Part shown: piece after piece, positions 8,650 through 32,961 of the stretch
Numbering within the stretch: the stretch's first letter is position 1
Layout: each line of letters begins with the position of its first letter
From: Patescibacteria group bacterium
Lineage (GTDB): Bacteria; Patescibacteriota; Patescibacteriia; CAIXNZ01
Assembly (NCBI GenBank): GCA_041651155.1
Contig: JBAZJU010000006.1
Span: 4,638 to 68,637, forward strand
Reading direction: 5' to 3'
Length of the DNA stretch: 64,000 bases
The notes under the pieces: model-generated
Told to the model about the DNA's origin: nothing
Database searches by the model: none
Seen by the model: only the letters and a program-made list of their open reading frames with translations
Program-made: the position numbers and the translations under genes

Positions 8650-8686
8650 TATTGATTTATTTTTCGGTACTTCATAATAAACCACT

Positions 8687-9388: not shown

Positions 9389-9410
9389 ATTTAATAATTA
9401 ATTTAAAATT

Positions 9411-9896: not shown

Positions 9897-9922
9897 TAAT
9901 TTTTTAAGATAATTTTAAATTT

Positions 9923-18664: not shown

Positions 18665-18672
18665 TTTTTAAT

Positions 18673-19629: not shown

Positions 19630-19665
19630 GACAACCTTTGGCTAAGATATTATTTACACTTAAAT

Positions 19666-20484
19666 ATGCCCAATCATTATAAAATCTGCCTAATTCTTTC
19701 ATTATTTTTACTCTCAGCTACAGCTGCCTGGGCAGGTTTTAATTATGATTCGGCCAATAATAATTTTTTATTTGATTCAATCTTGAGGACAGAAGGCAAT
19801 TATTTGCTGGTCGGCAATGCCTTTAATGAAAATTTAAAAAAGCAAGATAATAGCATTTCCACTAATTTTTTGGCCGTTTCCAATAATTTAATATTTTTAA
19901 ACAGCGGTGATGCGAATAACATTGGCGGCCAATTCTCCAGCGGTTTGCGCCAAGTTAGCAAAAATAATTTTTCCAGCCAGGCCATTACAATTGACAACAG
20001 CCAAAATTTGCAATTAGAGCCGGTTGGCGGCGCGAAATCATTGAGCCTGGAAGCCAACCGCATTTTATTAAATCAAAATTTTAGGCTCAGGAGCGGTTTG
20101 GCTTTTGATGTCCGGAGCGTGAATCAGATTTCAAATAGGACAATTTATGTTGACAAAGTATTGGCCTCTGGTCTGCAAAATTTAACCGCGGATAATCCTT
20201 TGCAGATTTCCAATAGTACTGTCTTGAATATTCCGGCCACAGCCGGAGCTGTTACGGCTGATAAAATTACTTTTGGCGCCAAAGATTTATGCGTGGTTAA
20301 GACCTGGACAGTTGTTGATAATACTTTAAAGCAGGGCGTGGGCGTGGCAGATTCTCCTATTATCACAGCGGATTGTCCTCCCAATTATTTTGTATTTGAT
20401 CTGGATGCTTCAGCAGGCAAAATGGTCTGTTGCCAGGCAGCCAGCGGGCAATTGCAGCTTAGCCAAATCCAGCAAACACCTTAA
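19666..20484 (+). CDS. Secreted hypothetical protein
   Basis: Signal peptide ICLILSLFLLSATAAWAG; 272 aa, Asn/Ser-rich. Confidence 0.6.
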   Translation: MPNHYKICLILSLFLLSATAAWAGFNYDSANNNFLFDSILRTEGNYLLVGNAFNENLKKQDNSISTNFLAVSNNLIFLNSGDANNIGGQFSSGLRQVSKNNFSSQAITIDNSQNLQLEPVGGAKSLSLEANRILLNQNFRLRSGLAFDVRSVNQISNRTIYVDKVLASGLQNLTADNPLQISNSTVLNIPATAGAVTADKITFGAKDLCVVKTWTVVDNTLKQGVGVADSPIITADCPPNYFVFDLDASAGKMVCCQAASGQLQLSQIQQTP

Positions 20485-20501: not shown

Positions 20502-20975
20502 ATGGACCAAGGCTTTAATTTTAAAATTAACAAGCAAGCTCAAAGCATAGAATTTACCATAAATACTGAAATTTATTCTTTGACAGCGATTTACAATGCC
20601 GCCTATTTATTTTTGGATAAGGCGTATGTTTTTTTAGATGGCGATCCGAAGGCAGAGATCATCGCAATATTTAAAAGGAAAGAAGGGCAAAAAGAGGAAA
20701 ATGGGAGAGAAGGCTTGGAAAAGATTGCCGGAGAATTTTATAATGAACTTTTAAATCAGCTGTTGCGGGAAAAAGTAAGCGAGTCAAATGCAAAAATCAG
20801 GGAATATGTGGTTTCAGCCGCGCTTTATAACGCTGTGCCCAATGAGGTGGATAAGCTTTTGCAGGAAGTTGAGGAGGAAGATTGGCAGGAAGATCCTTTA
20901 GGGATTGCAAAAACATGGGAGGATAATGAGAAGAGCAAAGAGGGTAAGAAGGGAGAAATGGGAAAATGGAAGTAA
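20502..20975 (+). CDS. Hypothetical protein
   Basis: 157 aa; acidic/basic C-terminus. Confidence 0.5.
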   Translation: MDQGFNFKINKQAQSIEFTINTEIYSLTAIYNAAYLFLDKAYVFLDGDPKAEIIAIFKRKEGQKEENGREGLEKIAGEFYNELLNQLLREKVSESNAKIREYVVSAALYNAVPNEVDKLLQEVEEEDWQEDPLGIAKTWEDNEKSKEGKKGEMGKWK

Positions 20976-21225: not shown

Positions 21226-21270
21226 AACCTTCGTCCCGCCCAGCGGGACTACGGTTTGCAAAGGCAAATA
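21226..21270. repeat. Structured repeat family B copy 2 (aaaccttcg-gtcccgcccagcgggac-tacggtttgcaaaggcaaat)
   Basis: See 17788-17831; compensatory stem substitution. Confidence 0.5.
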
Positions 21271-21288
21271 AAAAACAAAAACAAAAAT

Positions 21289-21636
21289 ATGGATAAGAAG
21301 TACGATTTAGAAGATCGCACCTTAGAGCTTGGAAAAGAAATAATTCGTTTATGTAAAACTTTACCTGCTAATACTATAAACTTTAGGCTAATAGATCAGT
21401 CTATTCGCTCTGGGACATCAGTTGGCGCCAATTATCGAGAAGCAAATGAAACTGACACAAAGAAAGATTTTAGATTTAAAATTAGAATTTGTTTAAGAGA
21501 AGCTAGGGAAACAATTTATTGGCTTGAGCTTATAAAAGAGGCTAACCAAAATTTTTCTGCCAGGATTGATAAATTGATTAGTGAGACAAGAGAAATAGTT
21601 AAGATTTTTGGTTCAATTTTGGAGAAATCTAAATAG
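21289..21636 (+). CDS. Four-helix-bundle protein (23S rRNA intervening-sequence-type protein family)
   Basis: Start at MDKKYDLEDRTLELGKEI; motif SVGANYREA ... DF ... REA...E typical of this family. Confidence 0.65.
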   Translation: MDKKYDLEDRTLELGKEIIRLCKTLPANTINFRLIDQSIRSGTSVGANYREANETDTKKDFRFKIRICLREARETIYWLELIKEANQNFSARIDKLISETREIVKIFGSILEKSK

Positions 21637-21737: not shown

Positions 21738-23219
21738 ATGTTAGATTTACAAACCATCAACAATTTAGATACCAAGTCAGTAGGATATTTTCGATTTAAA
21801 CAGTTTGGCAATGAATATCTGCTGACTAATGAAACTGGGGAGTATGTTTTTTTACCTGAAAATAATTTCAAGGAATTTTTAACTGGAAAGCTAGATTCTA
21901 AAAGTGAAAATTTTCAGGAGTTACTAAACAAGTCGTTCCTTAAAGATAAAAATTATCTGGCGAATGCAGTTTTAAAGTATCGCGAGCGCTATCATTTTTT
22001 AAAATTCGGGCCGTCTTTGCATATTGTGGTTGTAACTTTAAGATGCAATCATAAGTGTATTTATTGCCATGCCAGCGCCGGTAGCAGCGAGGATAAAGGT
22101 TTAGACATGGATTTGGCAACTGCCAAGAAAGTAGTAGATACGATTTTTCTCACTACCAATGATGCGATTTGTATTGAGTTCCAGGGCGGAGAGCCGCTTC
22201 TAAATTGGCCGGTGGTTAAATTTATCATTTCTTACGCAGCGGAAAAAAATAAGCTGGAAAAGAAAAATTTAATTTTTAGGCTCGTGTCCAATTTTAGCTT
22301 GATGGATGAAGAAAAAATGAAGTTCCTGATGGACAATGAAGTTTACTTCTGCACTTCGCTTGACGGCGACGAGGAAACTCATAATTATAATCGCATTTAT
22401 ACGGAAGGCAATAGCTATCAGAACGCGGTCAACTGGATAAAAAAGATAAACGCCGAATACGAGGAAGTAAATAAGGGCAAGAAAAAAAATTATTATAGAG
22501 TAGGCGCCTTGATAACTGTGACCAAAAAAACACTGGCTAGTTACAAAGAAGTGATAGATACTTATCTTGAGCTTGGCTTTAAAAGCATTTATCTGCGCTA
22601 TTTATATCCTTATGGCTTTGCCAGGCAAGCCAAAGAAAAAATTTGGTACACAGTAGATGAGTATGTTGACTTTTATAAAAAATCTCTTGATTATATTTTA
22701 GCCAAAAATTATCAGGGCCAGCTTTTTTACGAGAACATGGCCGCGACTTATTTGCGCAAGATTTTAGACCAGGAGGAGCCTCATAATCTGGATATGCGTT
22801 CGCCCTGCGGCGCGGTCATCGGCCAATTATCTTACAATTACAATGGTGATGTGTACACTTGTGATGATTCCAGGTCTCTTTCCAGACTAGGTGATGAAAC
22901 ATTTAAACTGGGCAATATTAAGCAAAATACTTTTAGCGAGCTGGTAAATAACAGTTTATGCAAATCAATGTGCGTTGCCTCATGCACCAATGGCTTGCCT
23001 GGCCATAATGAGAGCGTTTACCAGCCATATTGGGGAGCCTGTCCGGTCTACAATTATTGTCTTTCCGGCAATATATTCCCGGCCATGAAGGAAAATTTTA
23101 AATGGCAAATTGATGAGCAAATTCTTGATTATATTTTTGAAAAATTAAAAGATAAAAAAAATAAGGATATTTTTAAGGAATGGTGCAAAGCTTCACGGCC
23201 GAGAGCGAAATATGAATAA
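21738..23219 (+). CDS. Radical SAM/SPASM-domain peptide-maturase-like enzyme (493 aa)
   Basis: CX3CX2C at LRCNHKCIYCHA, GGEPLL motif, C-terminal Cys-rich SPASM-like region (CGAVIG ... CDDS ... CKSMCVASCTNG ... CPVYNYC). N-terminal region YFRFKQFGNEYLLTNETGEYVFL resembles peptide-maturase N-termini. Confidence 0.85.
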   Translation: MLDLQTINNLDTKSVGYFRFKQFGNEYLLTNETGEYVFLPENNFKEFLTGKLDSKSENFQELLNKSFLKDKNYLANAVLKYRERYHFLKFGPSLHIVVVTLRCNHKCIYCHASAGSSEDKGLDMDLATAKKVVDTIFLTTNDAICIEFQGGEPLLNWPVVKFIISYAAEKNKLEKKNLIFRLVSNFSLMDEEKMKFLMDNEVYFCTSLDGDEETHNYNRIYTEGNSYQNAVNWIKKINAEYEEVNKGKKKNYYRVGALITVTKKTLASYKEVIDTYLELGFKSIYLRYLYPYGFARQAKEKIWYTVDEYVDFYKKSLDYILAKNYQGQLFYENMAATYLRKILDQEEPHNLDMRSPCGAVIGQLSYNYNGDVYTCDDSRSLSRLGDETFKLGNIKQNTFSELVNNSLCKSMCVASCTNGLPGHNESVYQPYWGACPVYNYCLSGNIFPAMKENFKWQIDEQILDYIFEKLKDKKNKDIFKEWCKASRPRAKYE

Positions 23220-23300: not shown

Positions 23301-23801
23301 ATGCTAAACAAACTGCCAAAACTAAAGAAAAAATTTCAGGAATTTCTTAATGATGAAGAAGGCAAGATAACTAAAAAAGATATTATCATGCTTGGCATTG
23401 GCGCAAGCGCGCTTGGCATCATGGCCGAAGGAATCAATGCTGCTCATGCTGCTACGCCCACTTGTAGCGCAGGTGGTGGAGTTTATACCTCACCGCCAAA
23501 TTATGTTCAATGCAATGAAGGTTGGGCAGGAAGTTCAGGCTGCGGACCTCATGATTGCAACGGCGGTGGCTCGGGCTCAACTACCAATCTATGCCAAAAT
23601 AATTTGTCATACCCTTTGGGTTCTTGCACTAATACCCCCGGAGCTATTTGCGGGGTGGATATAGGAGATACTCATTTCGGCCATAATAATTTTGTTCATA
23701 ATGAAGGAGTAGTCGGTTCTCATTGCTCACACGGCTCTCATGGCTCTCACGGCTCACACGGCTCTCATGGCTCTCATGGCTCTCATGGGTTTGCCGGTTA
23801 A
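23301..23801 (+). CDS. Secreted Cys/Gly-rich protein with C-terminal (Ser-His-Gly)x7 = His-Xaa-Ser repeat tail; candidate radical-SAM substrate (HxsA-like)
   Basis: Charged N-terminal ~30 aa, hydrophobic segment MLGIGASALGIMAEGINAAHAA, 10 Cys core, then SHCSHGSHGSHGSHGSHGSHGSHGFAG. Confidence 0.7.
   Translation: MLNKLPKLKKKFQEFLNDEEGKITKKDIIMLGIGASALGIMAEGINAAHAATPTCSAGGGVYTSPPNYVQCNEGWAGSSGCGPHDCNGGGSGSTTNLCQNNLSYPLGSCTNTPGAICGVDIGDTHFGHNNFVHNEGVVGSHCSHGSHGSHGSHGSHGSHGSHGFAG
23726..23789 (+). repeat. Tandem 9-bp repeat (cayggctcw)x7 encoding the His-Gly-Ser repeats; frame-preserving simple sequence repeat
   Basis: Seen directly: cacggctct catggctct cacggctca cacggctct catggctct catggctct catgggttt. 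Confidence 0.8.
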
Positions 23802-23811
23802 ATTATATTTT

Positions 23812-24648
23812 ATGAAAAAAATAATTTTGATATTAGCGATAATAGCCTTATTAATAATTGTTGGTGTAGTTATTTTTTTTATTTATCTCAAAGCACCAGC
23901 GCGGCCAACAAATGTAAATCAGCCAGTGGCGGTTGCCAAAGAAAAAATTATTGGTAATTTTTCATTATTTCTTAATGAGCTAATAAATGTACAAAAAGTA
24001 CAGCCAGTTGCACTCACACCAATATTGGAATACTTAAGTTTTTGTGAATTTAAAAATAATAACATCTCTTTTGATCAGCAATGCATTAAGACCAATGAAA
24101 CATATTATGGCGTAAAAAATAGCTCTGCCGATTGCACCATTAAAGATGGAGATTTTGCTGAAATTGATTTTATCAAAAAAGGAGAACAAGACAATTTTTT
24201 GAAAATTTGCCAAGAATATATTTCTGCTCTTAATACCTATTACAATAATAATTCTCAAGAAAAAACAAGTTTAAACGCCCAAAGGTTTTATCAGTTTTAT
24301 AATGATTGTAATTTGCTTTGGGATAATAAGCTATATGGCGATAACGAATATTGTGATGCTGGAGATAATTGCTATGCAATCTTGCTGCCAGAGGACCAAA
24401 ATTGTCCTAATAAAATAAAGATTGATACCGTCAGTCTTGATAGCATTAAAACGGTTCAATGCCAAACTCAAGTCGGCTTTAGAAGAGCCAGCCAAAAATC
24501 AGATTGTCTGAACATCAAGAATTTAATGGCTCGGCTCTTTTGCCTTGACGCATTTGACAATAATCTTTGCTCAGAAGTCACAGCCAGCGTGGAAAATTTA
24601 AAATTACAAGATTTTGTGACAAAATATCAATTACAAACTGCCCAGTAA
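23812..24648 (+). CDS. Cys-rich membrane-anchored (signal-anchor) extracytoplasmic protein
   Basis: Start at MKKIILILAIIALLIIVGVVIFFIYL (ATG 23812), since the six-frame ORF start at 23740 lies inside the previous gene's repeat; about 14 Cys. Confidence 0.6.
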   Translation: MKKIILILAIIALLIIVGVVIFFIYLKAPARPTNVNQPVAVAKEKIIGNFSLFLNELINVQKVQPVALTPILEYLSFCEFKNNNISFDQQCIKTNETYYGVKNSSADCTIKDGDFAEIDFIKKGEQDNFLKICQEYISALNTYYNNNSQEKTSLNAQRFYQFYNDCNLLWDNKLYGDNEYCDAGDNCYAILLPEDQNCPNKIKIDTVSLDSIKTVQCQTQVGFRRASQKSDCLNIKNLMARLFCLDAFDNNLCSEVTASVENLKLQDFVTKYQLQTAQ

Positions 24649-24741: not shown

Positions 24742-25881
24742 ATGGCAAAAACGCTTAAAAACGATAAATTTTGGCTATCAATCAGCACCAGATGCAATAA
24801 TCAGTGCCTTTTTTGCCATGATAAGGAAAATCAGGTAAACGGACGTTTTTTTACATTGGCAGAGGTTCAAGATAAGATTGAACAGGCAAAAAAAGAAGGT
24901 TACAAGCGTTTGATTTTAAGCGGCGGGGAAGCTTCAATTAATCCTGATTTTTTGAAAATAGTCAGATATGCTCACGATTTAGGCTTTAAAGAAATCCAGA
25001 CAATCACTAATGGCCGCTATTTTTATTATTCCAAATTTGCCGCTGAGGCGATTAAAGCCGGTCTGACTGAAATAACTTTTTCTCTGCACGGCCATAACGA
25101 AGAACTGCACGAGGAATTTACCGGAGTTAAGGGTTCTTTTCAGCAGGCTTTAACTGGCCTGGCTAATGTCAGAAAATATCCGCAAATAATTGTTAATATT
25201 GATATAGTGATTAATAAATTGAATTACCCAAAGTTATATGACATAATTCAGTTTTATGCCCAGAATTTCGGGGTCTATGAATTTGATCTTTTACAAGTTG
25301 TCCCTTTTGGCCAAGCCTGGGAAAATCGTGATAAATTATTTTATGATTTTAATGATGCTTTGCCTTATCTGAACAAAGTGTGGGAGCTGGCAAAAAATGA
25401 CCAGAGATTTCATATCTGGACCAATCGTTTCCCGGCGCAATATCTGGAGGGTTATGAATTTTTGATTCAGGATCCGTATAAATATTTTGACGATGTTTTG
25501 GGACGCAAAAAAATGTTTGCGGAATTTATAAATGAAAATAAATTAATGCCTTGTTTTAATCCGGAGCGTTGCAAATCGTGCAACCTAAACGATTTTTGCC
25601 AGAAATTAATTAATTTAACAAAAGGAGATTTGTCAGACAAATTAATGAAATTAACAATGCCGCCTGTTTGTCTTGATTTGCCCCGCGATAATTATGAGAT
25701 TAATTTTTTGAATGCGCAAGGCAGAATCAATTTGGAAAAATTTGTGGATTTTTATATTAATAATTTGTACAACCTTAAATCTTTACGTTGCGATGATTGT
25801 AATAAATTTAAAGATTGTAACGGATTGAATATTAATTTAATTAAGGAAAAGGGTTTTAAAGTTTTAAAGCCAATATCATGA
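24742..25881 (+). CDS. Radical SAM enzyme with C-terminal partial-SPASM/twitch Cys motif; paralog 1 of six tandem copies (379 aa, longest)
   Basis: CX3CX2C at RCNNQCLFCHD (residues 18-25), SGGEASINP, CKSCNLNDFC (CX2CX5C). Confidence 0.85.
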   Translation: MAKTLKNDKFWLSISTRCNNQCLFCHDKENQVNGRFFTLAEVQDKIEQAKKEGYKRLILSGGEASINPDFLKIVRYAHDLGFKEIQTITNGRYFYYSKFAAEAIKAGLTEITFSLHGHNEELHEEFTGVKGSFQQALTGLANVRKYPQIIVNIDIVINKLNYPKLYDIIQFYAQNFGVYEFDLLQVVPFGQAWENRDKLFYDFNDALPYLNKVWELAKNDQRFHIWTNRFPAQYLEGYEFLIQDPYKYFDDVLGRKKMFAEFINENKLMPCFNPERCKSCNLNDFCQKLINLTKGDLSDKLMKLTMPPVCLDLPRDNYEINFLNAQGRINLEKFVDFYINNLYNLKSLRCDDCNKFKDCNGLNINLIKEKGFKVLKPIS

Positions 25882-25885
25882 CCAG

Positions 25886-25995
25886 GGCGAGAACGCCCTT
25901 TTGTCATTCCGAATGAAGTGAGGAATCTATTACTTCCAGGATTCTTCGCTTCGCTCTGAATGACAGTGAAGACAAAAGGGCGTTTTCGCCCGACA
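25886..25995. repeat. ~110-nt hairpin repeat family C copy 2, inserted between radical SAM paralogs 1 and 2
   Basis: Same conserved core as 15826-15935 with compensatory arm changes (acgccc/gggcgt vs agccc/gggct). Confidence 0.55.
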
Positions 25996-26004
25996 ATTAA
26001 TTCT

Positions 26005-26940
26005 ATGGCTAATCTAGGCTACATCCAATTAAACAGAACCTGTAATCAAAAATGCCTTTTTTGTTCTAATCCAGAAAACGGCAATGTTTTGGATTTAGCT
26101 CAAGTCAAATTTTATATTGATGATTTTGCGAATAAAAATTATCAGGGCGTAATTTTAACCGGCGGCGAGCCGACTTTAAATGCAGATTTAGAAAAAGTAA
26201 TTAGTTATGCCAAGTCCAAAGGTTTGGAAGTAAGGATAATTACCAATGGCCAAAAAACAGCTGACTTAGAATATCTAAAGAAACTAAAAAATGTCGGCTT
26301 GGATTTAATTCATGTTTCAGTGCAGTCTTATGACCCGAAAATCCAGGATTATCTGAGCCAAAATCCAGGTTCATTAAAAAATATCCTAAAAACTTTGGTT
26401 AATGCTTGGCGCCTGAATTTGCCTGTAAATATAAATACAGTGATCAATAGTTTTAATGCCAAAAGCCTGGATAAAAATATTAAATTTTTTCTGGTTAAAT
26501 TTCCAGAAATTAATCATTTTGTTTTTAATAATCTAGATCCTGAAATGAATCGGGTAGAGCAAAATAAATTTGTGGTGCCAAGATTAATTGATTTCAAGGA
26601 ATCTTTAAAAAGAGCTTTTGAATCGTTAAGTAAATTTGGCAAAACTTTCCGGGCAGAAAGAGTGCCTTTATGCTATATGGCTGAATATGGAGAATTTTCC
26701 ACCGAAACCAGAAAAATAGTTAAAAATGAAGAAAGAAGCATTTTATTTCTGGATGATAGAAAAGATCCTTATAGCATCCAAAAAAATTTTTATTATAAAA
26801 AAGCAAAACAGTGCGGCCAATGCAGCCTGAATGATATTTGCGCGGGTCTGTATGCCATGGATACGTATTTTGACAGTAGGGAATTGGAGCCGCAGCTGAT
26901 TGATAAGCAACTCATTATTAATAAAATTAAAAATGAATAA
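26005..26940 (+). CDS. Radical SAM twitch-domain enzyme, tandem paralog 2
   Basis: Start at MANLGYIQLNRTCNQKCLFCSNPENG (ORF track start 25960 lies in the repeat element); LTGGEPTLN; CGQCSLNDIC. Confidence 0.8.
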   Translation: MANLGYIQLNRTCNQKCLFCSNPENGNVLDLAQVKFYIDDFANKNYQGVILTGGEPTLNADLEKVISYAKSKGLEVRIITNGQKTADLEYLKKLKNVGLDLIHVSVQSYDPKIQDYLSQNPGSLKNILKTLVNAWRLNLPVNINTVINSFNAKSLDKNIKFFLVKFPEINHFVFNNLDPEMNRVEQNKFVVPRLIDFKESLKRAFESLSKFGKTFRAERVPLCYMAEYGEFSTETRKIVKNEERSILFLDDRKDPYSIQKNFYYKKAKQCGQCSLNDICAGLYAMDTYFDSRELEPQLIDKQLIINKIKNE

Positions 26941-27814
26941 GCGGGTGGAAATTTATATTGGTTTTAAATGCAATAATGATTGTGTTTTTTGCGTTGAAAG
27001 AAATATCCGCCTGCAAAATAAAGATAAAATTTTATACTCCGATCTGACTGCAATTGTCAATAAAATTAAGGATTTGAAAAATCAAGGCTATGGCCATATT
27101 AATTTTTTGGGCGGGGAGCCATTTTTGGAAAAAAACTTTTTGCCTTTTTTGCAGGCCGCTAAACAAAATGGCCTGTCCACCGCAGTCACCACCAATGGCA
27201 GCCTGCTTAGCAATGAAGAAATCGCCAAGTCACATTTGCCTTTGCTTGATGATTTGATTATCTCTATTCATGGCCACAATGAAGAACTGATAAGCCAGCA
27301 ATCAAAAAATCCCGGTTTGTTTAAAAGTTTGCTTGAGGCTTTTGCTAATATAAAAAAATATTTTCAAGGCAGACTGCTTAAAGCCAATTGCGTAATAAAT
27401 AAATTAAATTATAAAGATCTGCCGGAAATTATTGAGTTTATTTGTACTAACGGCATCCACGAAATTAGCCTGACAAATATGTCTCTCAAAGGTTACAATA
27501 ATGAATATGTTGTGCCTTTGAGCGAACTAAAAAAAGTTATACCCAAAATCGCAGATTATGCCAAAGAAAATAATTTGGTTCTTCGTTTTTCTGATTTGCC
27601 CTTTTGTATTTTGGGGGATAATTATTATCTGACTAATGAAATTTTTGCCGATGAGCGCGTTAAATATAATGCGGCCAATAAAGAGGAAAGTTTTTGGCGG
27701 CCCAAGCTTAAAACCGAAAAATGTAATGAGTGCAAGCTCAAGGATCTATGCATGGGAATTGATTTAGAATATTATAAATTATTTGGGGATTGTGAATTGA
27801 ATTCGGTAATATGA
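26933..27814 (+). CDS. Radical SAM twitch-domain enzyme, tandem paralog 3 (start overlaps stop of paralog 2: ATGAATAA)
   Basis: MNKRVEIYIGFKCNNDCVFCVERN; LGGEPFLE; CNECKLKDLC. Confidence 0.8.
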   Translation: MNKRVEIYIGFKCNNDCVFCVERNIRLQNKDKILYSDLTAIVNKIKDLKNQGYGHINFLGGEPFLEKNFLPFLQAAKQNGLSTAVTTNGSLLSNEEIAKSHLPLLDDLIISIHGHNEELISQQSKNPGLFKSLLEAFANIKKYFQGRLLKANCVINKLNYKDLPEIIEFICTNGIHEISLTNMSLKGYNNEYVVPLSELKKVIPKIADYAKENNLVLRFSDLPFCILGDNYYLTNEIFADERVKYNAANKEESFWRPKLKTEKCNECKLKDLCMGIDLEYYKLFGDCELNSVI

Positions 27815-27986
27815 AATTTTTTGTATTTTTGGATCTCCGCCTTTTGATTCTAGACAAAATTACAAATTAGCTACAAATTTAACAAAACAATAACTAGAAA
27901 AAGTCTTTTTGTATGTTTTGTATAAAAATTCGTAATTTTGTAGGAGTCAACCATTTTATACCCCACCTAAAGTTAAATATACCGAT

Positions 27987-28883
27987 ATGAGAAACATTGA
28001 GATTAACATTGGCAATAGCTGCAATAATGAATGTCTTTTTTGTATGGTGGACCACTCCAGCCGTGGTTTTGTTGCTTATAAAACAATTGAAAAAGAGATT
28101 ATCAGGGCAAAACAAAATGGTTTTGAGTCCATTGGTTTTTTAGGCGGGGAATTTACCTTGCATCCTGAGGTTTTAAAAATTGTAAAACTAGCCAAGATTT
28201 TAGGTTTTAAGATTATTCACATCATTAGTAATGGCCGTAAATATCAAGATGAGAATTTTGTCAAACAACTAATTAATAATGGCGTTAATCGCTTCTCAGT
28301 TTCAATCCATAGCCATAAGATGGAAGTTGAAGATTATTTAACGCAAAGGCCGGGAGGATTTGCAGAAAAAATTCAGGGCTTGAAAAATTTGGTAAAAATG
28401 AATCAGCCTGTTTCAGCTAATTTAGTCATCAACAACTTGAATTATCAGGATATTGCGGAAACTTTAAATTTTTTAAACGGGCTAGGAATTATTGATTTTC
28501 GTTTGAATTTTATCTGGTTGCATGGCCGGGCTTTAGCTAACCAAAATTTATTTCTTAAATTTAATGACTTTTTGCCTTTGGTGGATAAAATTATTAATCT
28601 GGCAAAAGAGAAAAATCTTACCATTGCTTTTGAAGGAATACCCGCTTGTTTAATTAAAGATAACAATAAATTGGATTACATCGGCGAATTAAGAGATTTA
28701 AAAACAGAAGTGGTAGCTTTTAATAATCCGCAAAAAGAAAGAGAAAATTTTAATTGGCAGGAAAGGAAGACCAATGAATTTAAAATTAAGCATGAAAAAT
28801 GCCTGGAGTGCGTTTATAATAATTCTTGCGAGGGTGTATGGAGAGATTATATTAACTTCTTTGGCTGGAAGGAATTTTTTTAA
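27987..28883 (+). CDS. Radical SAM twitch-domain enzyme, tandem paralog 4
   Basis: IGNSCNNECLFCMVDHS; LGGEFTLHP; CLECVYNNSCEGVW; ends FGWKEFF. Confidence 0.8.
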   Translation: MRNIEINIGNSCNNECLFCMVDHSSRGFVAYKTIEKEIIRAKQNGFESIGFLGGEFTLHPEVLKIVKLAKILGFKIIHIISNGRKYQDENFVKQLINNGVNRFSVSIHSHKMEVEDYLTQRPGGFAEKIQGLKNLVKMNQPVSANLVINNLNYQDIAETLNFLNGLGIIDFRLNFIWLHGRALANQNLFLKFNDFLPLVDKIINLAKEKNLTIAFEGIPACLIKDNNKLDYIGELRDLKTEVVAFNNPQKERENFNWQERKTNEFKIKHEKCLECVYNNSCEGVWRDYINFFGWKEFF

Positions 28884-28937
28884 ATATCAATCCGAAGAAG
28901 CGATTGGCCAATCGCTTCTTCGGACAAGTTTTATCCT

Positions 28938-29786
28938 ATGTCTTTAATCCGCTTAACAAATTTATGCAATGCAAAATGTTTATTCTGCAATTTCCCAGAT
29001 GATTGCCGAGTTTTAAGTTTGGACGAAGCAAAAAAAGAAATTGATACTATTACTGATGATTCGGTTGCTTTTACTGGCGGTGAGCCAACGATTCATCCGT
29101 TTCTTAAAGAGACAATTAGTTATGCCAAGCAAAAAGGGATTAAAAACATTGAACTGCAAAGCAATTGTTTTTTGCTTGAAAATTTAGATTTGGTTAAGGA
29201 ATTAAAAGCATTGGGTTTGACCGGAGTTTTTGTTACAGTTCATTCTGAGCAAAAAGAAGTTTTTGAAAAAATCACCCAGGTGCCCGGGAGTTTTGAAAAA
29301 GTTTTGCAAGGAATCGCTAATTTAATTTCCTTAGGGGTTAAAGTGCGAATCAATATTGTTATTAATTTTTTAAATTATAAGAATCTAGAAGAAATCACTA
29401 AATTTATTTACAGCCAATTTCCACAAATAAAAAGTATTGATTATTCTTTTGTCGTACCGGTTGAAAAAGTTTTAAAGCAGCCAGAATTATTGCCAAAAAT
29501 AAGCGAGGTTGTACCATTTTTAAAAAAAGCCTTTAAATATTGCCAGGAAAATAAAATTAGTTTTTCTAATCCAGGCTGTGGCCTGCCTTTATGTTTTATT
29601 CCCGAATATAAAGAAAATAGTTTGGAATATAATTTTTTAAAAAAACAAATAGAAAATGGGTTAATTTCTGATAATCGTTTTGAAAAGATTAAGTTTGCTA
29701 AATGCAAAACCTGTGAATTTGATGAATTTTGTCTGGGCTTTTGGCCAAATTATGTTAAAATTCACGGTGAGCAGGAATTTATTTAA
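28938..29786 (+). CDS. Radical SAM twitch-domain enzyme, tandem paralog 5
   Basis: RLTNLCNAKCLFCNFPDD; FTGGEPTIHP; CKTCEFDEFCLGFW. Confidence 0.8.
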   Translation: MSLIRLTNLCNAKCLFCNFPDDCRVLSLDEAKKEIDTITDDSVAFTGGEPTIHPFLKETISYAKQKGIKNIELQSNCFLLENLDLVKELKALGLTGVFVTVHSEQKEVFEKITQVPGSFEKVLQGIANLISLGVKVRINIVINFLNYKNLEEITKFIYSQFPQIKSIDYSFVVPVEKVLKQPELLPKISEVVPFLKKAFKYCQENKISFSNPGCGLPLCFIPEYKENSLEYNFLKKQIENGLISDNRFEKIKFAKCKTCEFDEFCLGFWPNYVKIHGEQEFI

Positions 29787-29797
29787 TTTTATTATTT

Positions 29798-30691
29798 ATG
29801 GACAGAGTTGATATAAAAATCGGCTTTAAGTGCAATAACAATTGCCAGTTTTGCGTCCAGGGTGAAAAAAGGTATAAACATGAGAACAGAACATTGGATG
29901 AGATTAGGAACGCTTTAGCAGAGGCCAAAGGACAAGGCGCCGCAGGCGTGGTTTTTACCGGAGGTGAGCCGACCATTCATCCTGATATTTTGGCAGCCGT
30001 AAAATCCGCCCGTGATTTGGGTTTTAAAAATATCCAGATTCAATCAAACGGCCGGATGTTTGCCTATTTGGATTTTTGCAAAAAGTTAGTTTTGGCCGGG
30101 GCAAATGAATTTTCCCCGGCTTTGCACGGCTCAAACCCAGAAATCCATGATGAATTAACCAGCAGTCCTGGCGCGTGGCAGCAAGTGGTGCAGGGGATTA
30201 AAAATTTAAAATCACTGGGGCAGCATGTTTTGACCAATACAGTAATTAATTCTGAAAATTATCAGGATTTGCCAAAGCTGGCCCAGCTTTTTGTTGATTT
30301 GGGCGTTGACCAATTCCAATTTGCCTTTGTCCATATTTTGGGTACGGCAGAAAAAAATAAAGATTGGATTGTGCCAAAGATGAGTGAAGTGATGCCTTTT
30401 GTAAAACAAGGCTTGGAGATCGGGATTAAGGCAGGGAAGGTTGTGATGACTGAAGCTATCCCTTTTTGTTTAATGCAGGGCTATGAAGATTTTATTGCCG
30501 AAAGGATAATGCCTGAAACAAAAATTGTTGATGCCGAAGGCGTAATTGAAAATTTTGCTGACTATCGTTGGAATCAGGGGAAAGTTAAAAGGGAAGAATG
30601 CAAGGTGTGTAAATTTTTTAAGCTTTGCGAAGGCCCCTGGAAAGAATACCCGGAAATTTTTGGCTGGGATGAATTCCAGCCGATCTTATAA
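29798..30691 (+). CDS. Radical SAM twitch-domain enzyme, tandem paralog 6
   Basis: IGFKCNNNCQFCVQGEKR; FTGGEPTIHP; CKVCKFFKLCEGPW; ends FGWDEFQPIL. Confidence 0.8.
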   Translation: MDRVDIKIGFKCNNNCQFCVQGEKRYKHENRTLDEIRNALAEAKGQGAAGVVFTGGEPTIHPDILAAVKSARDLGFKNIQIQSNGRMFAYLDFCKKLVLAGANEFSPALHGSNPEIHDELTSSPGAWQQVVQGIKNLKSLGQHVLTNTVINSENYQDLPKLAQLFVDLGVDQFQFAFVHILGTAEKNKDWIVPKMSEVMPFVKQGLEIGIKAGKVVMTEAIPFCLMQGYEDFIAERIMPETKIVDAEGVIENFADYRWNQGKVKREECKVCKFFKLCEGPWKEYPEIFGWDEFQPIL

Positions 30692-30693
30692 AT

Positions 30694-32175
30694 ATGCAAA
30701 ATCCATTTGAAGTTATTTTTTTAGCTTTTTTATTTATCTTTGGCATCATAATCTGCTATGAGGATTTTAGGTTTGACAAAATCAGGAATAAATGGATTAA
30801 ATGGGGTTTTATAATCGGCGTTGCTTTGTACTTGTTGCAGATTATTTATTTAATTTTTTCATCTCAAACAATTGAATTGCATAATTATTGGCAGATAATT
30901 TTAAATACCTTGATTGCCTTTGTTTTGGGGTTTACCCTCTGGTATTTTAAGCTTTGGTCAGGAGGTGATGCGAAACTATTTACTCTCTTTGTTTTTTTAC
31001 TGCCGATCAGCTTCTATTCTGAATGGAATTTTATTTATTGGCCGCCTTTAAATTTATTGATAAATATTACAATTCCGATTTTTATTTATTTGCTGATTAA
31101 ATTTTTACTTTATCCCTTTCAATTGCTGATAAATTATCTAAAAAATCCCCATTTACTTAAAGAATATTATCGCAATTATAAAAGCAGGAATAAGCTTGAT
31201 AAGAAAAAAATCAATGAATATTTGGCTGCGGCCTTGAGCTTTGTTATAATTTTGATATTTTTTCAAATTATAAGAGTGCGGTTGGGCGATTTTTTGCATC
31301 CTTATCTCGGCAGCCTGATGATTGCTTTTTACTTTTTTATGGGTTTTGTAGTTTTTCAGCCCTTGCGGAAATTAATGCAAAAAAGAATTATTTTGGCTTT
31401 AATTTCAGTGATTGCGTACTTTGTGGCTGGAATCATATTTTTTCGTAATTTGGTTTTCGCTGATTTGCACAATTTATTTGCCGTGCAGTTAATTTTTATG
31501 CTTTCTTATTATTATATCTTCAAATACGGCAAAGCCCTGATTATGTTTTTGTATAATTCAGCTGAAGTAAGAATGATTCCGGTAGAAGAACTGCAGGCCG
31601 GAGTTTACATTAACAAAGATTATGTCAGTAATGTTTTAGGCAATCGTTTTAATCTGGAAAATTTTAAAAACAGCCTGGATGCAACTTTGGCTAATGAGGA
31701 CAAGGAACAATTATGGAGCCTGCTTAAGCAAAAATCAGACAAAAGCCATAAGGAAAAACAATATATTCAGCTGGTTGCTTATTTGAATCCGCAAAGTTGG
31801 CCGTATTTAATCAAGCAAATTTTTCAGATAAGAAAACAAAAAAAGGCTGGCCAAGACCTGTTGGAAAAAATTTCCGCCAAGTTAAATTTAGAACAAAAAT
31901 CAGAATTAGAAAATATTTTAAATCACACGGATGAATTTAAAAAATTTTTAAAGTCAATTCGCGGAAAATTAACTGCAGAGCAAGCAGACAAACTAAAGGC
32001 CATGATAATGCAAAGAAACGAAGAGATTAAAGCCCATGGCTTGCAGCCGATTGATAAAATTATTTTGCATAAAACCTTTGCTTTTGCGCCTTTTATGCTT
32101 TTGGGCGTGATTATAACTCTCGTCACAAAAAGTTCTTTAATTCATTTAATTTACGTTTACATTTTGCACAAGTAG
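30694..32175 (+). CDS. Prepilin-peptidase (A24 aspartyl protease)-like polytopic membrane protein fused to a ~330-aa C-terminal TM/coiled-coil extension
   Basis: Motifs CYEDFRFDKIRNKW (first Asp region) and LWSGGDAKLFTLFVFLLP (cf. GxGDVKL second catalytic Asp of PilD/FlaK/TadV); starts 3 nt after paralog 6. Confidence 0.6.
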   Translation: MQNPFEVIFLAFLFIFGIIICYEDFRFDKIRNKWIKWGFIIGVALYLLQIIYLIFSSQTIELHNYWQIILNTLIAFVLGFTLWYFKLWSGGDAKLFTLFVFLLPISFYSEWNFIYWPPLNLLINITIPIFIYLLIKFLLYPFQLLINYLKNPHLLKEYYRNYKSRNKLDKKKINEYLAAALSFVIILIFFQIIRVRLGDFLHPYLGSLMIAFYFFMGFVVFQPLRKLMQKRIILALISVIAYFVAGIIFFRNLVFADLHNLFAVQLIFMLSYYYIFKYGKALIMFLYNSAEVRMIPVEELQAGVYINKDYVSNVLGNRFNLENFKNSLDATLANEDKEQLWSLLKQKSDKSHKEKQYIQLVAYLNPQSWPYLIKQIFQIRKQKKAGQDLLEKISAKLNLEQKSELENILNHTDEFKKFLKSIRGKLTAEQADKLKAMIMQRNEEIKAHGLQPIDKIILHKTFAFAPFMLLGVIITLVTKSSLIHLIYVYILHK

Positions 32176-32187
32176 GCCTTTACATCT

Positions 32188-32559
32188 ATGGGTTTTAAGC
32201 CTATAATAAAGATATCAAAATTAATTAAAGATATGGAAAACGAACAAAAATATTTAACTAAAACTGAATTAGCTGAATTTACTGAAGAAACTTTATTGCC
32301 GGCTGTGGAAAAAATTGTTGATGATAAGCTCGAGGAAAAACTAGAAAATAAGCTAAATGCAAAGTTTGGTGAATTTAAGCATGAAATAAAAAGCTATATT
32401 GATGATAAGCTAGCTGATACAAAAGGCGATATTATAGCGGTAATAAAGGGCGAAAAGGAAAGAGACAGGAGTTTTAAAGAAAAAGTGGTTGAAATTTTTA
32501 AAAGAAATAAATTGGCAGATAGAAAGGAAGCTGAATTATTAGAATCTTTGATTCATTAA
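32188..32559 (+). CDS. Hypothetical coiled-coil protein
   Basis: 123 aa, repetitive DDKL/EEKL heptads. Confidence 0.5.
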   Translation: MGFKPIIKISKLIKDMENEQKYLTKTELAEFTEETLLPAVEKIVDDKLEEKLENKLNAKFGEFKHEIKSYIDDKLADTKGDIIAVIKGEKERDRSFKEKVVEIFKRNKLADRKEAELLESLIH

Positions 32560-32593: not shown

Positions 32594-32875
32594 TTGATTA
32601 ATTTAAAATATATGTTAGAAAAAAATGATTTATTACAACTTGAGCAACTTTTAGATAGAAAGCTGGATGAAAAATTAGATGAAAAGCTTGATCCTATCAT
32701 GCAAAGGCTAAATTCTATTGAGGAAGAAATTGCTGATATTAAAATAATATTAGCGAGAATTGATAAAAGGACAGATGAGGATGTTAGTGCGGCCTATAAA
32801 GAAATTGAGAAATTAAAAGATAGAGTCAGCGACTTAGAAAATCAAGTAAAAATGCTTAAAATTCAAAGTGCTTGA
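32594..32875 (+). CDS. Hypothetical coiled-coil protein (paralogous repeats KLDEKLDEKLD to preceding gene)
   Basis: 93 aa. Confidence 0.5.
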   Translation: MINLKYMLEKNDLLQLEQLLDRKLDEKLDEKLDPIMQRLNSIEEEIADIKIILARIDKRTDEDVSAAYKEIEKLKDRVSDLENQVKMLKIQSA

Positions 32876-32961
32876 TTTTTTATTTAGTCATAGTATCTTT
32901 AGGGCCTCTTTAATAGAGGCTTTTTGATTTTTTTTAAAATTTAAGTTAAGATAAAAGTATT

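What the first reader, a model, noticed from the sequence alone, without database searches (positions are those of the whole stretch)
30694..32175. A24 prepilin-peptidase-like protease fused to a large extra domain at the end of the radical SAM array
The N-terminal ~150 aa carry the two Asp motifs of type IV prepilin/preflagellin peptidases (YEDFRFD... and WSGGDAKL). The remaining ~340 aa (further TM helices plus a Lys/Glu-rich coiled coil) are not part of any A24 enzyme I know. No prepilin-like gene (class III signal, G|F/M-hydrophobic) is visible nearby. The substrate may therefore be the leader of the neighbouring Cys/His-rich proteins: the hydrophobic MLGIGASALGIMAEG segment of 23301-23801 follows a charged ~30-aa N-terminus. 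This would be an unusual recruitment of an A24 protease into a modification cassette.
Basis: inference. Interest (0 to 1): 0.6.

Follow-up and report, generated by a model that had tools for sequence, protein, structure and literature searches.

The report
Prepilin-peptidase-like protease in His-Xaa-Ser cassettes
The gene encodes a divergent membrane aspartyl protease of the prepilin-peptidase (A24/FlaK) type that, in ultra-small bacteria and archaea, is almost always wired into radical-SAM "His-Xaa-Ser" protein-maturation gene clusters, making it the best candidate for the still-unidentified enzyme that trims the leader of the His-Xaa-Ser repeat protein.

Summary

The "radical SAM array" is an expanded His-Xaa-Ser (Hxs) system: HxsD, HxsB, an HxsA-like precursor, a TM protein, six HxsC-like enzymes, then this protease, 2 nt after the last one.

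The protease family has at least 765 clusters at 50% identity and no NCBIfam model. It lies next to HxsC-like or HxsD/B/A genes in nearly all 85 related loci, with different gene orders in CPR bacteria and DPANN archaea.

HxsA3/A4-type precursors share a conserved basic leader, a small residue, then a hydrophobic segment. This layout is class III-like. Leader cleavage by this protease is the best-supported mechanism but is inferred. An ordinary pilin-processing role is not excluded, since about 20% of related loci carry pilus genes nearby.

The parts
20502..20975 (+). HxsD (small His-Xaa-Ser system protein)
   Evidence: TIGR03976 63.7 bits against a cut-off of 50.
21256..21636 (+). Four-helix-bundle protein (TIGR02436) lying between HxsD and HxsB. 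Probably an unrelated insertion.
   Evidence: TIGR02436 90 bits against a cut-off of 24. Absent from the HxsD-HxsB interval in other loci.
21738..23219 (+). HxsB, radical SAM/SPASM maturase
   Evidence: TIGR03978 500.4 bits against a cut-off of 370. Pfam Radical_SAM plus SPASM.
23301..23801 (+). HxsA-like precursor (166 aa): conserved leader, hydrophobic segment, Cys-rich middle, and C-terminal H-x-S repeats
   Evidence: The N-terminus matches HxsA3 NF038309 (40.9 bits; cut-off 65) and the C-terminus matches HxsA4 NF038313 (41.6 bits; cut-off 55). Both are below cut-off. Relatives in other loci pass the HxsA4 cut-off.
23301..23396 (+). Leader, residues 1-32 (MLNKLPKLKKKFQEFLNDEEG21KITKKDIIMLG32). 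G21 and G32 are the candidate cleavage sites, ahead of the hydrophobic segment IGASALGIMA.
   Evidence: Logo from 70 unique precursors: P, KK, F, L, E, E invariant or nearly so; G at 67/70; a small residue (G50/A12/S7/T1) directly before the hydrophobic stretch.
23721..23783 (+). H-x-S repeat tract (HCS followed by six HGS repeats)
   Evidence: Regex on the translation.
23812..24648 (+). Membrane-anchored Cys-rich protein of unknown role (278 aa counted from the MKKIIL start)
   Evidence: ORF list and start position. No Pfam or NCBIfam hit.
24742..25881 (+). HxsC-like radical SAM paralogue 1
   Evidence: Best NCBIfam hits are HxsC4 and HxsC, below cut-off. Pfam Radical_SAM.
25960..26940 (+). 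HxsC-like radical SAM paralogue 2
26933..27814 (+). HxsC-like radical SAM paralogue 3 (ATG at 26933; the listed ORF starts at TTG 26900)
27987..28883 (+). HxsC-like radical SAM paralogue 4
   Evidence: HxsC4 141.4 bits against a cut-off of 500.
28938..29786 (+). HxsC-like radical SAM paralogue 5
29798..30691 (+). HxsC-like radical SAM paralogue 6. Its stop codon lies 2 nt before the protease ATG.
   Evidence: HxsC4 166.5 bits against a cut-off of 500. Junction sequence read. No terminator-like site between the two genes.
30694..32175 (+). A24/GxGD-type membrane aspartyl protease, called 'A24L' in this report (493 aa)
30694..31143 (+). A24 core, residues 1-150: five TM helices, with D24 (30763-30765) and D92 (30967-30969) at the predicted cytoplasmic face
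   Evidence: Pfam residues 12-128. Model helices. K+R count is 44 in 'in' loops and 1 in 'out' loops.
31219..31557 (+). Four additional TM helices (residues ~176-288), present across the whole family
   Evidence: Model. Occupied in short-form homologues. Profile matches are full-length in 360-410-aa relatives.
31561..32073 (+). Predicted cytoplasmic module (residues ~290-460), flanked by strands 292-296 and 455-459
   Evidence: Model. 29 K+R residues. No significant structural relative.
31636..31929 (+). Clade-specific Lys/Glu-rich helical insert (residues 315-412).
   Evidence: Absent from more than 70% of the 57 short-form homologues.
32074..32133 (+). Last TM helix (residues 461-480). F462, F464, G471 and T475 are near-invariant. 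It resembles the C-terminal helix of GspO.

Best explanation
ORF 30694-32175 encodes an active GxGD-type (A24B/FlaK-like, no methyltransferase domain) intramembrane aspartyl protease. I call it A24L. It belongs to a distinct, unnamed family that serves as an accessory component of expanded His-Xaa-Ser (Hxs) radical-SAM maturation cassettes in CPR bacteria, a few other bacterial candidate phyla, and DPANN archaea.

Proposed mechanism:
1. The HxsA-like precursor (23301-23801) is made with a ~32-residue conserved basic leader followed by a hydrophobic segment.
2. HxsB/HxsD and the six HxsC-like enzymes modify its Cys/His-rich, H-x-S-repeat C-terminal part in the cytoplasm.
3. The hydrophobic segment inserts N-in into the membrane.
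4. A24L cuts off the leader. Its two Asp residues and its large soluble module are predicted to face the cytoplasm. The cut would fall after a conserved small residue: G32 just before the hydrophobic segment, as in class III signals, or G21 in the invariant FLxxEEG motif.
5. This releases or activates the mature surface-exposed or exported protein.

Shown here: protease family membership, conservation of the catalytic residues, fold, predicted topology, the Hxs identity of the cassette, gene linkage across lineages, and conservation of the leader.

Inferred: that HxsA is the substrate, where it is cut, and the order of events.
For: Protease identity:
- PF01478 scores above its cut-off.
- D24, D92, K94 and N32 are invariant in 81 sequences. 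D92 is invariant and D24 is conserved in at least 90% of 118 distant representatives.
- Positive-inside count of 44 against 1 puts both Asp residues and the soluble module on the cytoplasmic side.

Cassette identity:
- HxsB and HxsD pass their cut-offs.
- The precursor carries H-x-S repeats and an HxsA3/A4-type leader.

Gene linkage:
- 5 of 5 contexts found by exact-protein look-up show a radical SAM array directly upstream, with differing downstream genes.
- Among 85 related loci, 47 of the 86 loci (window included) have the protease start within -53 to +17 nt of an HxsC-like gene.
- All 30 loci with at least 8 kb on both sides contain HxsC-like genes, and 11 of them show HxsD/B/A in view.
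- In DPANN loci the order is A24L-HxsD-HxsB-HxsA with 4-40 nt gaps (L068-070, L074, L076, L077, L083, L084, L137). In CPR bacteria the order is D-B-A...C(n)-A24L. Linkage therefore survives rearrangement and spans two domains.
- A24L never sits inside a type IV pilus operon.

Substrate candidate:
- The leader is conserved in 70 unique precursors.
- Its layout is charged leader, then a small residue, then an H-domain. [quoted passage not shown]
- In leader-seeded loci without A24L in view (L127, L129), a canonical PilD-type A24 peptidase lies 0.5-0.8 kb upstream of HxsD-B-A.
- In E. coli HXS, HxsA undergoes N-terminal processing that is not ordinary signal-peptide removal and has no identified protease (PMC13128918).
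Against: - No experiment or complex model connects protease and precursor.
- Neither candidate Gly fits the canonical class III rule of a charged residue at -2, G/A/S at -1, and the H-domain at +1. G21 is 11 polar residues away from the H-domain. G32 has K at -3, not -2 (PMC4371748).
- Eight leaders gave no Pfam Flp/pilin match at E<=10.
- An AxA-like site after the hydrophobic segment suggests ordinary signal peptidase I could do the processing.
- Leader conservation could be explained entirely by recognition by HxsB/HxsD.
- The reciprocal test was weak. Only 3 of 58 leader-seeded loci show A24L. Most contigs are truncated inside the array, but the L116 and L129 arrays end without it.
- L003-type loci show A24L plus HxsC-like genes but no HxsD/B/A within 10 kb.
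- Pilin or pilus genes lie 0.2-8 kb downstream in 16-17 of 85 loci.
- The Pfam score is marginal, and Foldseek gave no significant hit.
Confidence: 0.55

Rival explanations
1. A24L is an ordinary, if divergent, prepilin peptidase. Its substrates are type IV pilins or pseudopilins. Its position beside radical SAM arrays reflects conserved synteny, or a shared regulon, rather than action on HxsA.
For: It has A24 family features. A four-gene minor-pilin set with G|F-T-L-I-E signals follows A24L directly in L033 and L041, and follows it after a PKD protein in L003, L037 and L040. Pilin, ATPase or PilC genes lie within 10 kb downstream on the same strand in 16-17 of 85 loci. Two T2SSF genes lie 7-9.5 kb upstream in L074. 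There is precedent for a second, 'much larger' prepilin peptidase with its own pilin class, EppA (PMC4371748).
Against: The 64 kb window contains no pilin-like ORF and no pilus gene. About 80% of related loci have none within 10 kb. A24L is never inside a pilus operon, whereas a canonical PilD is (L127, L101). It is translationally coupled to radical SAM genes, or heads the A24L-HxsD-HxsB-HxsA unit, across two domains of life. The pattern scan found only 179 relatives among 185,579 species genomes, so it is not the housekeeping peptidase of CPR bacteria, though the pattern-limited scan makes that count a lower bound.
Confidence: 0.17
2. Unifying variant: HxsA3/A4 proteins are themselves pilin-like class III substrates. 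A24L, or PilD where A24L is absent, processes both them and adjacent minor pilins. The modified H-x-S protein is then displayed or exported by type IV filament machinery.
For: The Hxs cluster, an A24 peptidase and pilus genes recur together. PilD plus a full pilus operon lie directly upstream of HxsD-B-A in L127 and L129. Minor-pilin sets lie after A24L. The precursors have a class III-like layout. Archaeal PibD already processes non-pilus substrates such as sugar-binding proteins (PMC4371748).
Against: The H-domain is short (~15-17 residues), lacks the +5 Glu of bacterial pilins, and is followed by an AxA-like site. Pilus genes are absent from most loci, including this window. L127 and L129 are close relatives and so count as about one independent event.
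Confidence: 0.13
3. A24L acts like a signal-peptide peptidase, or processes another membrane protein of the cassette. Signal peptidase I would release mature HxsA at the AxA site, and A24L would then clear or liberate the leader-plus-anchor remnant. Alternatively it cuts the TM protein at 23812-24648.
For: GxGD proteases include signal-peptide peptidases (established knowledge). AxA-like motifs follow the hydrophobic segment in most precursors. A membrane-anchored Cys-rich protein sits next to HxsA.
Against: A24-branch enzymes are known to cut at the cytoplasmic membrane face before the H-domain, not inside it (PMC4371748). The TM protein has no Gly before its hydrophobic segment and matched no family in Pfam or NCBIfam; its presence in the other loci was not examined.
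Confidence: 0.08
4. A24L is not a protease here. It would be a membrane scaffold or export conduit that tethers the radical SAM enzymes through its cytoplasmic module.
For: It has a large conserved cytoplasmic module and four extra TM helices with no known relative. The E. coli study proposes that Hxs proteins help export HxsA (PMC13128918).
Against: Both catalytic Asp residues, the Gly before D92 and the Lys after it are invariant or nearly so across 81-118 sequences at 22-32% identity. This is what is expected of a working active site.
Confidence: 0.07

Closest known systems
FlaK / PibD / TadV-CpaA type prepilin (preflagellin) peptidases (MEROPS A24B, GxGD aspartyl proteases)
   Different: It is about 150-260 aa longer, with four extra TM helices and a cytoplasmic module inserted before the last helix. 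The motif is mostly A-G-D rather than G-x-G-D across the family. It is encoded in radical SAM/Hxs cassettes rather than pilus or archaellum operons. The candidate substrate is not a pilin, and neither Gly fits the canonical -2/-1/+1 rule.
EppA of Methanococcus maripaludis (a second, 'much larger' archaeal prepilin peptidase with its own substrate class; PMC4371748)
   Same: It is a precedent for an enlarged A24 paralogue dedicated to one substrate family alongside a general peptidase.
   Different: EppA substrates are true pilins (+1 Gln) encoded with pilus genes. Sequence or structural relatedness of A24L to EppA was not tested here.
Canonical His-Xaa-Ser (HXS) antiphage system of E. coli/Klebsiella (HxsD-HxsB-HxsC-HxsA; PMC13128918)
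   Same: It has HxsB and HxsD orthologues above cut-off, HxsC-like enzymes, and a precursor with C-terminal H-x-S repeats. The published system also requires N-terminal processing of HxsA.
   Different: The gene order is D-B-A-TM-C(x6)-A24L. There are six divergent HxsC paralogues instead of one. The precursor has an HxsA3/A4-type leader and a Cys-rich region instead of a Sec signal plus a peptidoglycan-binding domain. It has an added membrane protease. The host is a CPR bacterium. No evidence here bears on antiphage function.
Dedicated leader peptidases of RiPP / peptide-maturation clusters (e.g. C39 domains of ABC exporters, LanP-type subtilisins)
   Same: The functional logic is the same: a protease gene at the end of a modification cassette that removes a conserved leader after modification.
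   Different: The protease class is unrelated (membrane GxGD aspartyl protease). No paper in the searched library combines 'prepilin peptidase', 'radical SAM' and 'leader peptide'.

Membership tests
Peptidase A24 (type IV prepilin/preflagellin peptidases) | Match to the family profile above the curated threshold | tested here: met
   PF01478 27.2 bits against a gathering score of 26.5, residues 12-128. This is marginal. Only some homologues carry the precomputed hit.
Peptidase A24 (type IV prepilin/preflagellin peptidases) | Two catalytic Asp residues, the second in a G-x-G-D / x-G-D-x-K-L motif | tested here: met
   D24 and G91-D92-x-K94 are invariant in 81 sequences. D92 and K94 are invariant and D24 is conserved in at least 90% of 118 representatives. 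Motif-by-motif match to E. coli GspO by eye.
Peptidase A24 (type IV prepilin/preflagellin peptidases) | FlaK-like polytopic fold with the active site at the cytoplasmic face | tested here: met
Peptidase A24 (type IV prepilin/preflagellin peptidases) | Cleaves class III signal peptides of pilins, archaellins or pseudopilins | not testable with these tools
   No pilin in the window. Pilins lie downstream in about 20% of related loci. Activity needs an experiment.
A24A (PilD-type bifunctional peptidase/N-methyltransferase) | N-terminal Cys-rich DiS_P_DiS / methyltransferase domain | tested here: not met
   No PF06750 hit. D24 lies in the first TM helix, 23 residues from the N-terminus. Contrast the canonical PilD of L127, which has CxxC..CxxC.
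His-Xaa-Ser (Hxs) system | HxsB radical SAM/SPASM maturase | tested here: met
   TIGR03978 500.4 bits against 370.
His-Xaa-Ser (Hxs) system | HxsD small protein | tested here: met
   TIGR03976 63.7 bits against 50.
His-Xaa-Ser (Hxs) system | HxsC radical SAM partner | tested here: inconclusive
   HxsC or HxsC4 is the best hit for five of the six paralogues and nearly tied with it for the sixth (28938-29786). All are far below cut-off; the best scores are 99.2 against 267.9 and 166.5 against 500.
His-Xaa-Ser (Hxs) system | HxsA precursor with His-Xaa-Ser repeats | tested here: inconclusive
   A tract of seven H-x-S repeats is present. The leader matches HxsA3 and the tail matches HxsA4, but both are below cut-off (40.9 against 65; 41.6 against 55). 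Relatives in L016, L054 and L059 pass the HxsA4 cut-off.
His-Xaa-Ser (Hxs) system | Four-gene composition in the order D-B-C-A (99.6-99.8% of described systems) | tested here: not met
   Here the order is D-(4HB)-B-A-TM-Cx6-A24L. The canonical order is from PMC13128918.
Flp/Tad prepilins (substrates of TadV/CpaA) | Match of the precursor N-terminus to the Flp/Fap pilin profile (G|xxxxEY motif) | tested here: not met
   Eight leaders gave no Flp_Fap hit at E<=10. The 'FLxxEEG' resemblance to 'FLKDESG' is recalled from memory only.

The most novel reading that the evidence does not exclude
A whole family of A24/GxGD proteases, at least 765 clusters at 50% identity, has been recruited away from pilus biogenesis. 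It would serve as the dedicated leader peptidase of radical-SAM-modified His-Xaa-Ser repeat proteins in CPR bacteria and DPANN archaea. That would supply the protease step that is still unassigned in HXS maturation. These precursors would then be a new, non-pilin class of class III-like signal peptide substrates, possibly handed on to type IV filament machinery.
Probability: 0.45. Interest if true: 0.75.

Novelty: new variant of a known kind. Interest (0 to 1): 0.62.

Why it matters
Prepilin-type (A24) peptidases are known almost only as processors of pilins, archaellins and a few pilin-like proteins. A large, unnamed A24 branch embedded in radical-SAM protein-maturation cassettes would widen the substrate range of this protease class.

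It also bears on an open point. The 2026 study of the E. coli HXS antiphage system showed that HxsA needs non-canonical N-terminal processing but did not identify the protease. The CPR/DPANN variant encodes an obvious candidate next to the substrate. This gives a directly testable pair for heterologous expression.

Finally, it flags heavily expanded Hxs cassettes (6-9 radical SAM paralogues) as a recurrent feature of ultra-small episymbiotic bacteria and archaea. Their surface biology and phage defence are poorly known.

Tried and rejected
- NCBIfam has no model for the protease (0 hits).
- The Flp-prepilin resemblance of the leader was not supported by Pfam and is kept only as a lead.
- The 18-sequence leader alignment was too variable for a collection scan. 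A 5-sequence alignment worked, but most metagenome contigs were too short to reach the end of the array, so the reciprocal co-occurrence test is inconclusive.
- The AlphaFold-database fold library was unavailable.
- The three secreted proteins at 17990-20484 and the TM protein at 23812-24648 were considered as class III substrates and rejected. They have Sec-type N-termini and no Gly before the hydrophobic stretch.
- A pure synteny artefact was considered for the close relatives (L001 and L002 also share cysS and corA downstream). It was rejected because distant homologues with different downstream genes and different gene orders keep the linkage.
- Some record titles look unreliable, for example 'uncultured Gammaproteobacteria/Methanosarcinales/Saccharibacteria' on automated MAGs. 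The claim of archaeal occurrence rests on several independently named Woesearchaeota and Nanoarchaeota MAGs and was not verified phylogenetically.
Full report
**1. The observation**

The window has an ATG-to-stop ORF at 30694..32175 on the + strand, encoding 493 aa. Pfam reports Peptidase_A24 (PF01478) over residues 12-128 at 27.2 bits, just above the gathering score of 26.5. NCBIfam has no model that matches. Codons 30763-30765 and 30967-30969 encode D24 (YED24FRFDKIRN) and D92 (SGGD92AKL).

In an alignment of 81 homologues, down to 24% identity, D24, N32, G91, D92 and K94 are invariant. In 118 further representatives at 22-32% identity, D92 and K94 stay invariant and D24, N32 and G91 are conserved in at least 90%.

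By inspection the motifs line up with E. coli GspO, fetched as L144. 'VID94FRTQLLPD' corresponds to 'YED24FRFDKIRN', and 'GYGD158FKL' to 'SGGD92AKL'. The Asp spacing is 64 in GspO and 68 here. There is no N-terminal Cys-rich methyltransferase domain, so the protein is of the FlaK/PibD/TadV type rather than the PilD type.

**2. The "large extra domain"**

The model shows five TM helices in residues 1-150. These are followed by:
- a strongly basic loop;
- four more TM helices (about residues 176-288);
- a soluble module (about 290-460) bracketed by two short strands (292-296, 455-459);
- a last TM helix (464-478).

Counting Lys+Arg in the loops gives 44 on the predicted inner side and 1 on the outer side. 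Both Asp residues and the soluble module are therefore predicted to face the cytoplasm, as expected for A24 enzymes.

Most of the extra part is family-wide. An exhaustive profile search of 1.84 billion representatives finds 765 clusters at E<=1e-30, 1595 at E<=1e-10 and 2439 at E<=1e-3. Typical lengths are 360-410 aa, matched end to end. Only residues 315-379, 385-412 and 444-451 are missing from more than 70% of the shorter homologues.

No solved structure resembles the insert.

**3. The neighbourhood is an expanded His-Xaa-Ser system**

- 20502-20975 is HxsD (TIGR03976: 63.7 bits against a cut-off of 50).
- 21738-23219 is HxsB (TIGR03978: 500.4 bits against 370).
- 23301-23801 is an HxsA-like precursor. 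It ends in a tract of seven H-x-S repeats, HCS followed by six HGS. Its N-terminus matches the HxsA3 model and its tail matches the HxsA4 model, both below cut-off.
- The six genes from 24742 to 30691 are radical SAM proteins. HxsC or HxsC4 is the best NCBIfam match for five of them and nearly tied for the sixth, always far below cut-off.
- A four-helix-bundle gene (TIGR02436) lies between HxsD and HxsB.
- A membrane-anchored Cys-rich protein (23812-24648) lies between HxsA and the first HxsC-like gene. It has no family match.

The protease ATG is 2 nt after the stop of the last radical SAM gene, with no terminator-like site between them. A strong promoter-like site follows the protease stop at 32179-32207, and a terminator-like hairpin lies at 32901-32923, before cysS.

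The Hxs system was recently shown to be an antiphage system in E. coli. There, HxsB/C/D are needed for a +8 Da modification of HxsA. [quoted passage not shown] No protease was identified. Of described systems, 99.8% have four genes and 99.7% are in Pseudomonadota (PMC13128918).

**4. Linkage of the protease family to these cassettes**

Five genomic contexts were found by exact-protein look-up: two close relatives at 52-56% identity and three distant ones at 29-43%. All five show a run of radical SAM genes ending at the protease, while the downstream genes differ.

A scan of 185,579 species genomes found 179 relatives. The 80 loci kept come from Parcubacteria-type CPR lineages, Omnitrophota, Schekmanbacteria, and Woesearchaeota/Nanoarchaeota MAGs. 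This taxonomy is taken from record titles, some of which look unreliable.

Using HMMs built from the window's own genes:
- 47 of 86 loci have the protease start within -53 to +17 nt of an HxsC-like gene.
- All 30 loci with at least 8 kb on both sides contain HxsC-like genes.
- 11 of those 30 also show HxsD/B/A.
- In many of the rest the array runs to the edge of the fetched DNA.

The gene order differs between lineages. In CPR bacteria it is D-B-A...C(n)-protease. In the archaeal loci it is protease-HxsD-HxsB-HxsA, with gaps of 4-40 nt (L068, L069, L070, L074, L076, L077, L083, L084 and metagenome locus L137). Linkage that survives rearrangement and spans two domains is the main argument for a functional connection.

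**5. The candidate substrate**

Precursors from 70 distinct loci share a striking N-terminus. In positions relative to the invariant Phe:
- Pro at -9 in 70/70, and Lys-Lys at -6/-5;
- Phe-Leu at 0/+1 (70 and 69);
- Glu-Glu at +4/+5 (70 and 68);
- Gly at +6 (67, Ala in the other 3);
- Lys-Ile at +7/+8, and Lys at +10;
- a small residue at +17 (G 50, A 12, S 7, T 1), directly before a hydrophobic stretch of 15-17 residues.

In the window this reads MLNKLPKLKKKFQEFLNDEEG21KITKKDIIMLG32|IGASALGIMA. Several relatives pass the HxsA4 cut-off.

The layout is a charged cytoplasmic leader, a small residue, then an H-domain. This is the class III layout, in which the peptidase site precedes the H-domain (PMC4371748).

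The fit is imperfect:
- Archaeal sites have a charged residue at -2. Here Lys is at -3 relative to G32.
- G21 lies 11 polar residues ahead of the H-domain.
- The H-domain is followed by AxA-like motifs that could serve signal peptidase I.
- Eight leaders gave no Pfam pilin or Flp match at E<=10.

The leader could equally be what HxsB/HxsD recognise.

**6. Reciprocal test and the pilus connection**

Seeding a metagenome scan with the leader returned 58 loci. In nearly all of these where the flanks are present, the order is HxsD-HxsB-HxsA. Only three show the protease (L096, L098, L137). Most contigs stop inside the radical SAM array. In L116 and L129 the array ends without the protease. The protease is therefore not demonstrably universal in these systems.

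In L127 and L129, however, a canonical PilD-type A24 peptidase lies 0.5-0.8 kb upstream of HxsD. It has the Cys-rich N-domain, GLGDVKL and IPFGPFL motifs, and sits at the end of a full pilus operon. In L101 a PilD lies 4.6 kb upstream.

Conversely, pilin-like genes, PilB/T-like ATPases or PilC lie within 10 kb downstream on the same strand in 16-17 of the 85 protease-seeded loci. A four-gene minor-pilin set follows the protease directly in L033 and L041, and follows it after a PKD protein in L003, L037 and L040. The protease itself is never inside a pilus operon.

The window has no pilin-like ORF, pilus gene or second A24 gene in 64 kb.

These data cut both ways. They keep alive the reading that this is a pilin peptidase. 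They also fit the idea that HxsA3/A4 precursors need an A24-type cut, supplied either by a dedicated enzyme or by PilD.

**7. Most likely mechanism**

I favour, at about 0.55, a dedicated leader peptidase model:
1. The precursor is modified in the cytoplasm by HxsB/HxsD and the HxsC-like enzymes.
2. Its hydrophobic segment inserts N-in into the membrane.
3. The protease removes the leader at the cytoplasmic face. The class III analogy favours G32. Conservation favours G21.
4. The cytoplasmic module may dock the leader or the maturases.

Shown: family, catalytic residues, fold, topology prediction, cassette identity, linkage and leader conservation. Inferred: substrate, site and order of events.

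Rivals:
- an ordinary pilin peptidase (0.17);
- a unifying version in which HxsA is itself a pilin-like substrate handled with minor pilins (0.13);
- a signal-peptide-peptidase-like or other-substrate role (0.08);
- a non-proteolytic scaffold (0.07), made unlikely by the invariant active-site residues.

**8. Comparison with what is known, and novelty**

As a protein, this is a member of the A24/GxGD peptidases of the FlaK/PibD/TadV kind. The profile test is met marginally, and the catalytic-motif and fold tests are met. The PilD methyltransferase domain is absent. Pilin cleavage is untestable here.

As a system, the cassette is a variant of Hxs. HxsB and HxsD are met. HxsC and HxsA are inconclusive. 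The canonical four-gene composition and order are not met.

EppA, a "much larger" second archaeal prepilin peptidase with its own substrate class, is the nearest precedent for a specialised enlarged paralogue (PMC4371748). Relatedness to it was not tested.

No paper in the searched library combines 'prepilin peptidase', 'radical SAM' and 'leader peptide'. None links Hxs with CPR bacteria, DPANN archaea or prepilin peptidases. NCBIfam catalogues HxsA3, HxsA4 and HxsC4 but has no model for this protease.

I rate it a new variant of a known kind: a known protease class in a new genomic and probably functional role, attached to a recently characterised system whose processing protease is unknown.

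Noticed in passing
L127:3145-10360 and L129:1-3297 (also L101:1-2154): A canonical PilD-type prepilin peptidase lies 0.5-0.8 kb upstream of HxsD-HxsB-HxsA, in loci where the A24-like protease is not in view. It sits at the end of a PilB/PilT/PilC/pilin operon. In L101 a PilD lies 4.6 kb upstream of HxsD.
   Followed up: partly
L033:10437-12462; L041:6341-8355; L003:12508-14374; L037:12387-14221; L040:9682-11640: A conserved four-gene minor-pilin set (GspH/I/J/K-like, with G|F-T-L-I-E signals) lies directly after the A24-like gene, or after an intervening PKD-domain protein. It is followed by either a trypsin-like protease or LigA.
   Followed up: partly
window 28891-28924: A 34-nt near-perfect palindrome (TCCGAAGAAGCGATTGGCCAATCGCTTCTTCGGA, 15-16 bp stem) lies in the 54-nt gap between radical SAM paralogues 4 and 5. 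It could be an internal attenuator or an RNA processing site.
   Followed up: no
window 21256-21636: A four-helix-bundle protein (TIGR02436, the family often called 23S rRNA intervening-sequence protein) is inserted between HxsD and HxsB. A related PF05635 gene also appears near the cassette in L004.
   Followed up: no
window 47592-49025 (- strand): A further 477-aa radical SAM protein lies on the opposite strand, about 15 kb from the cassette. It was detected with the HxsC-like HMM. Its partner genes were not examined.
   Followed up: no
window 8687-9388: A secreted protein with an extremely Cys-rich N-terminal region (…RSGCCSHHGGVCGCSCCDGS…). Function unknown.
   Followed up: no
window 13146-13838 and 13853-14278: Two adjacent lipoprotein genes have almost identical signal peptides (MKKL[LF]IIFAFIVLLAGCSLQ). 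This looks like a recent tandem duplication.
   Followed up: no
L028:880-2394; L097:974-2473; L114:5699-7210; L116:9986-11560; L111:5434-6864: Giant HxsA-like precursors of about 475-525 aa have the same leader, very long H-x-S repeat tracts and an extra C-terminal domain. L136 has a 2222-aa protein right after a short precursor.
   Followed up: no
L003:550-3508; L005:412-4544; L004:5858-9991: In some A24-like loci the array also contains other genes. These include a HemN-like radical SAM, SPASM-type maturases, glycosyltransferases (GT28, GT2), and TsaD/Sua5-like carbamoyltransferase-type genes. No HxsD/B/A lies within 10 kb. The product there may differ from an H-x-S protein.
   Followed up: partly
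L074:485-2629 and 7592-9901: In a Nanoarchaeota MAG, two T2SSF (PilC/TadC-like) genes lie 7-9.5 kb upstream of the A24-like gene. A LAGLIDADG-domain ORF lies directly upstream of RtcB.
   Followed up: no
window 32188-32559 and 32594-32875: Two small coiled-coil proteins with no TM segment and no family match lie between the protease and cysS. Close relatives (L001, L002) also have one small ORF in this position, so these may belong to the long-form cassette.
   Followed up: no
window 38279-40834; L001:17792-19996; L002:16386-18959: A DUF8128/TraG-VirD4-like ATPase, together with cysS and corA, keeps the same downstream synteny in close relatives. This shows that the close relatives alone cannot prove functional linkage.
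   Followed up: yes
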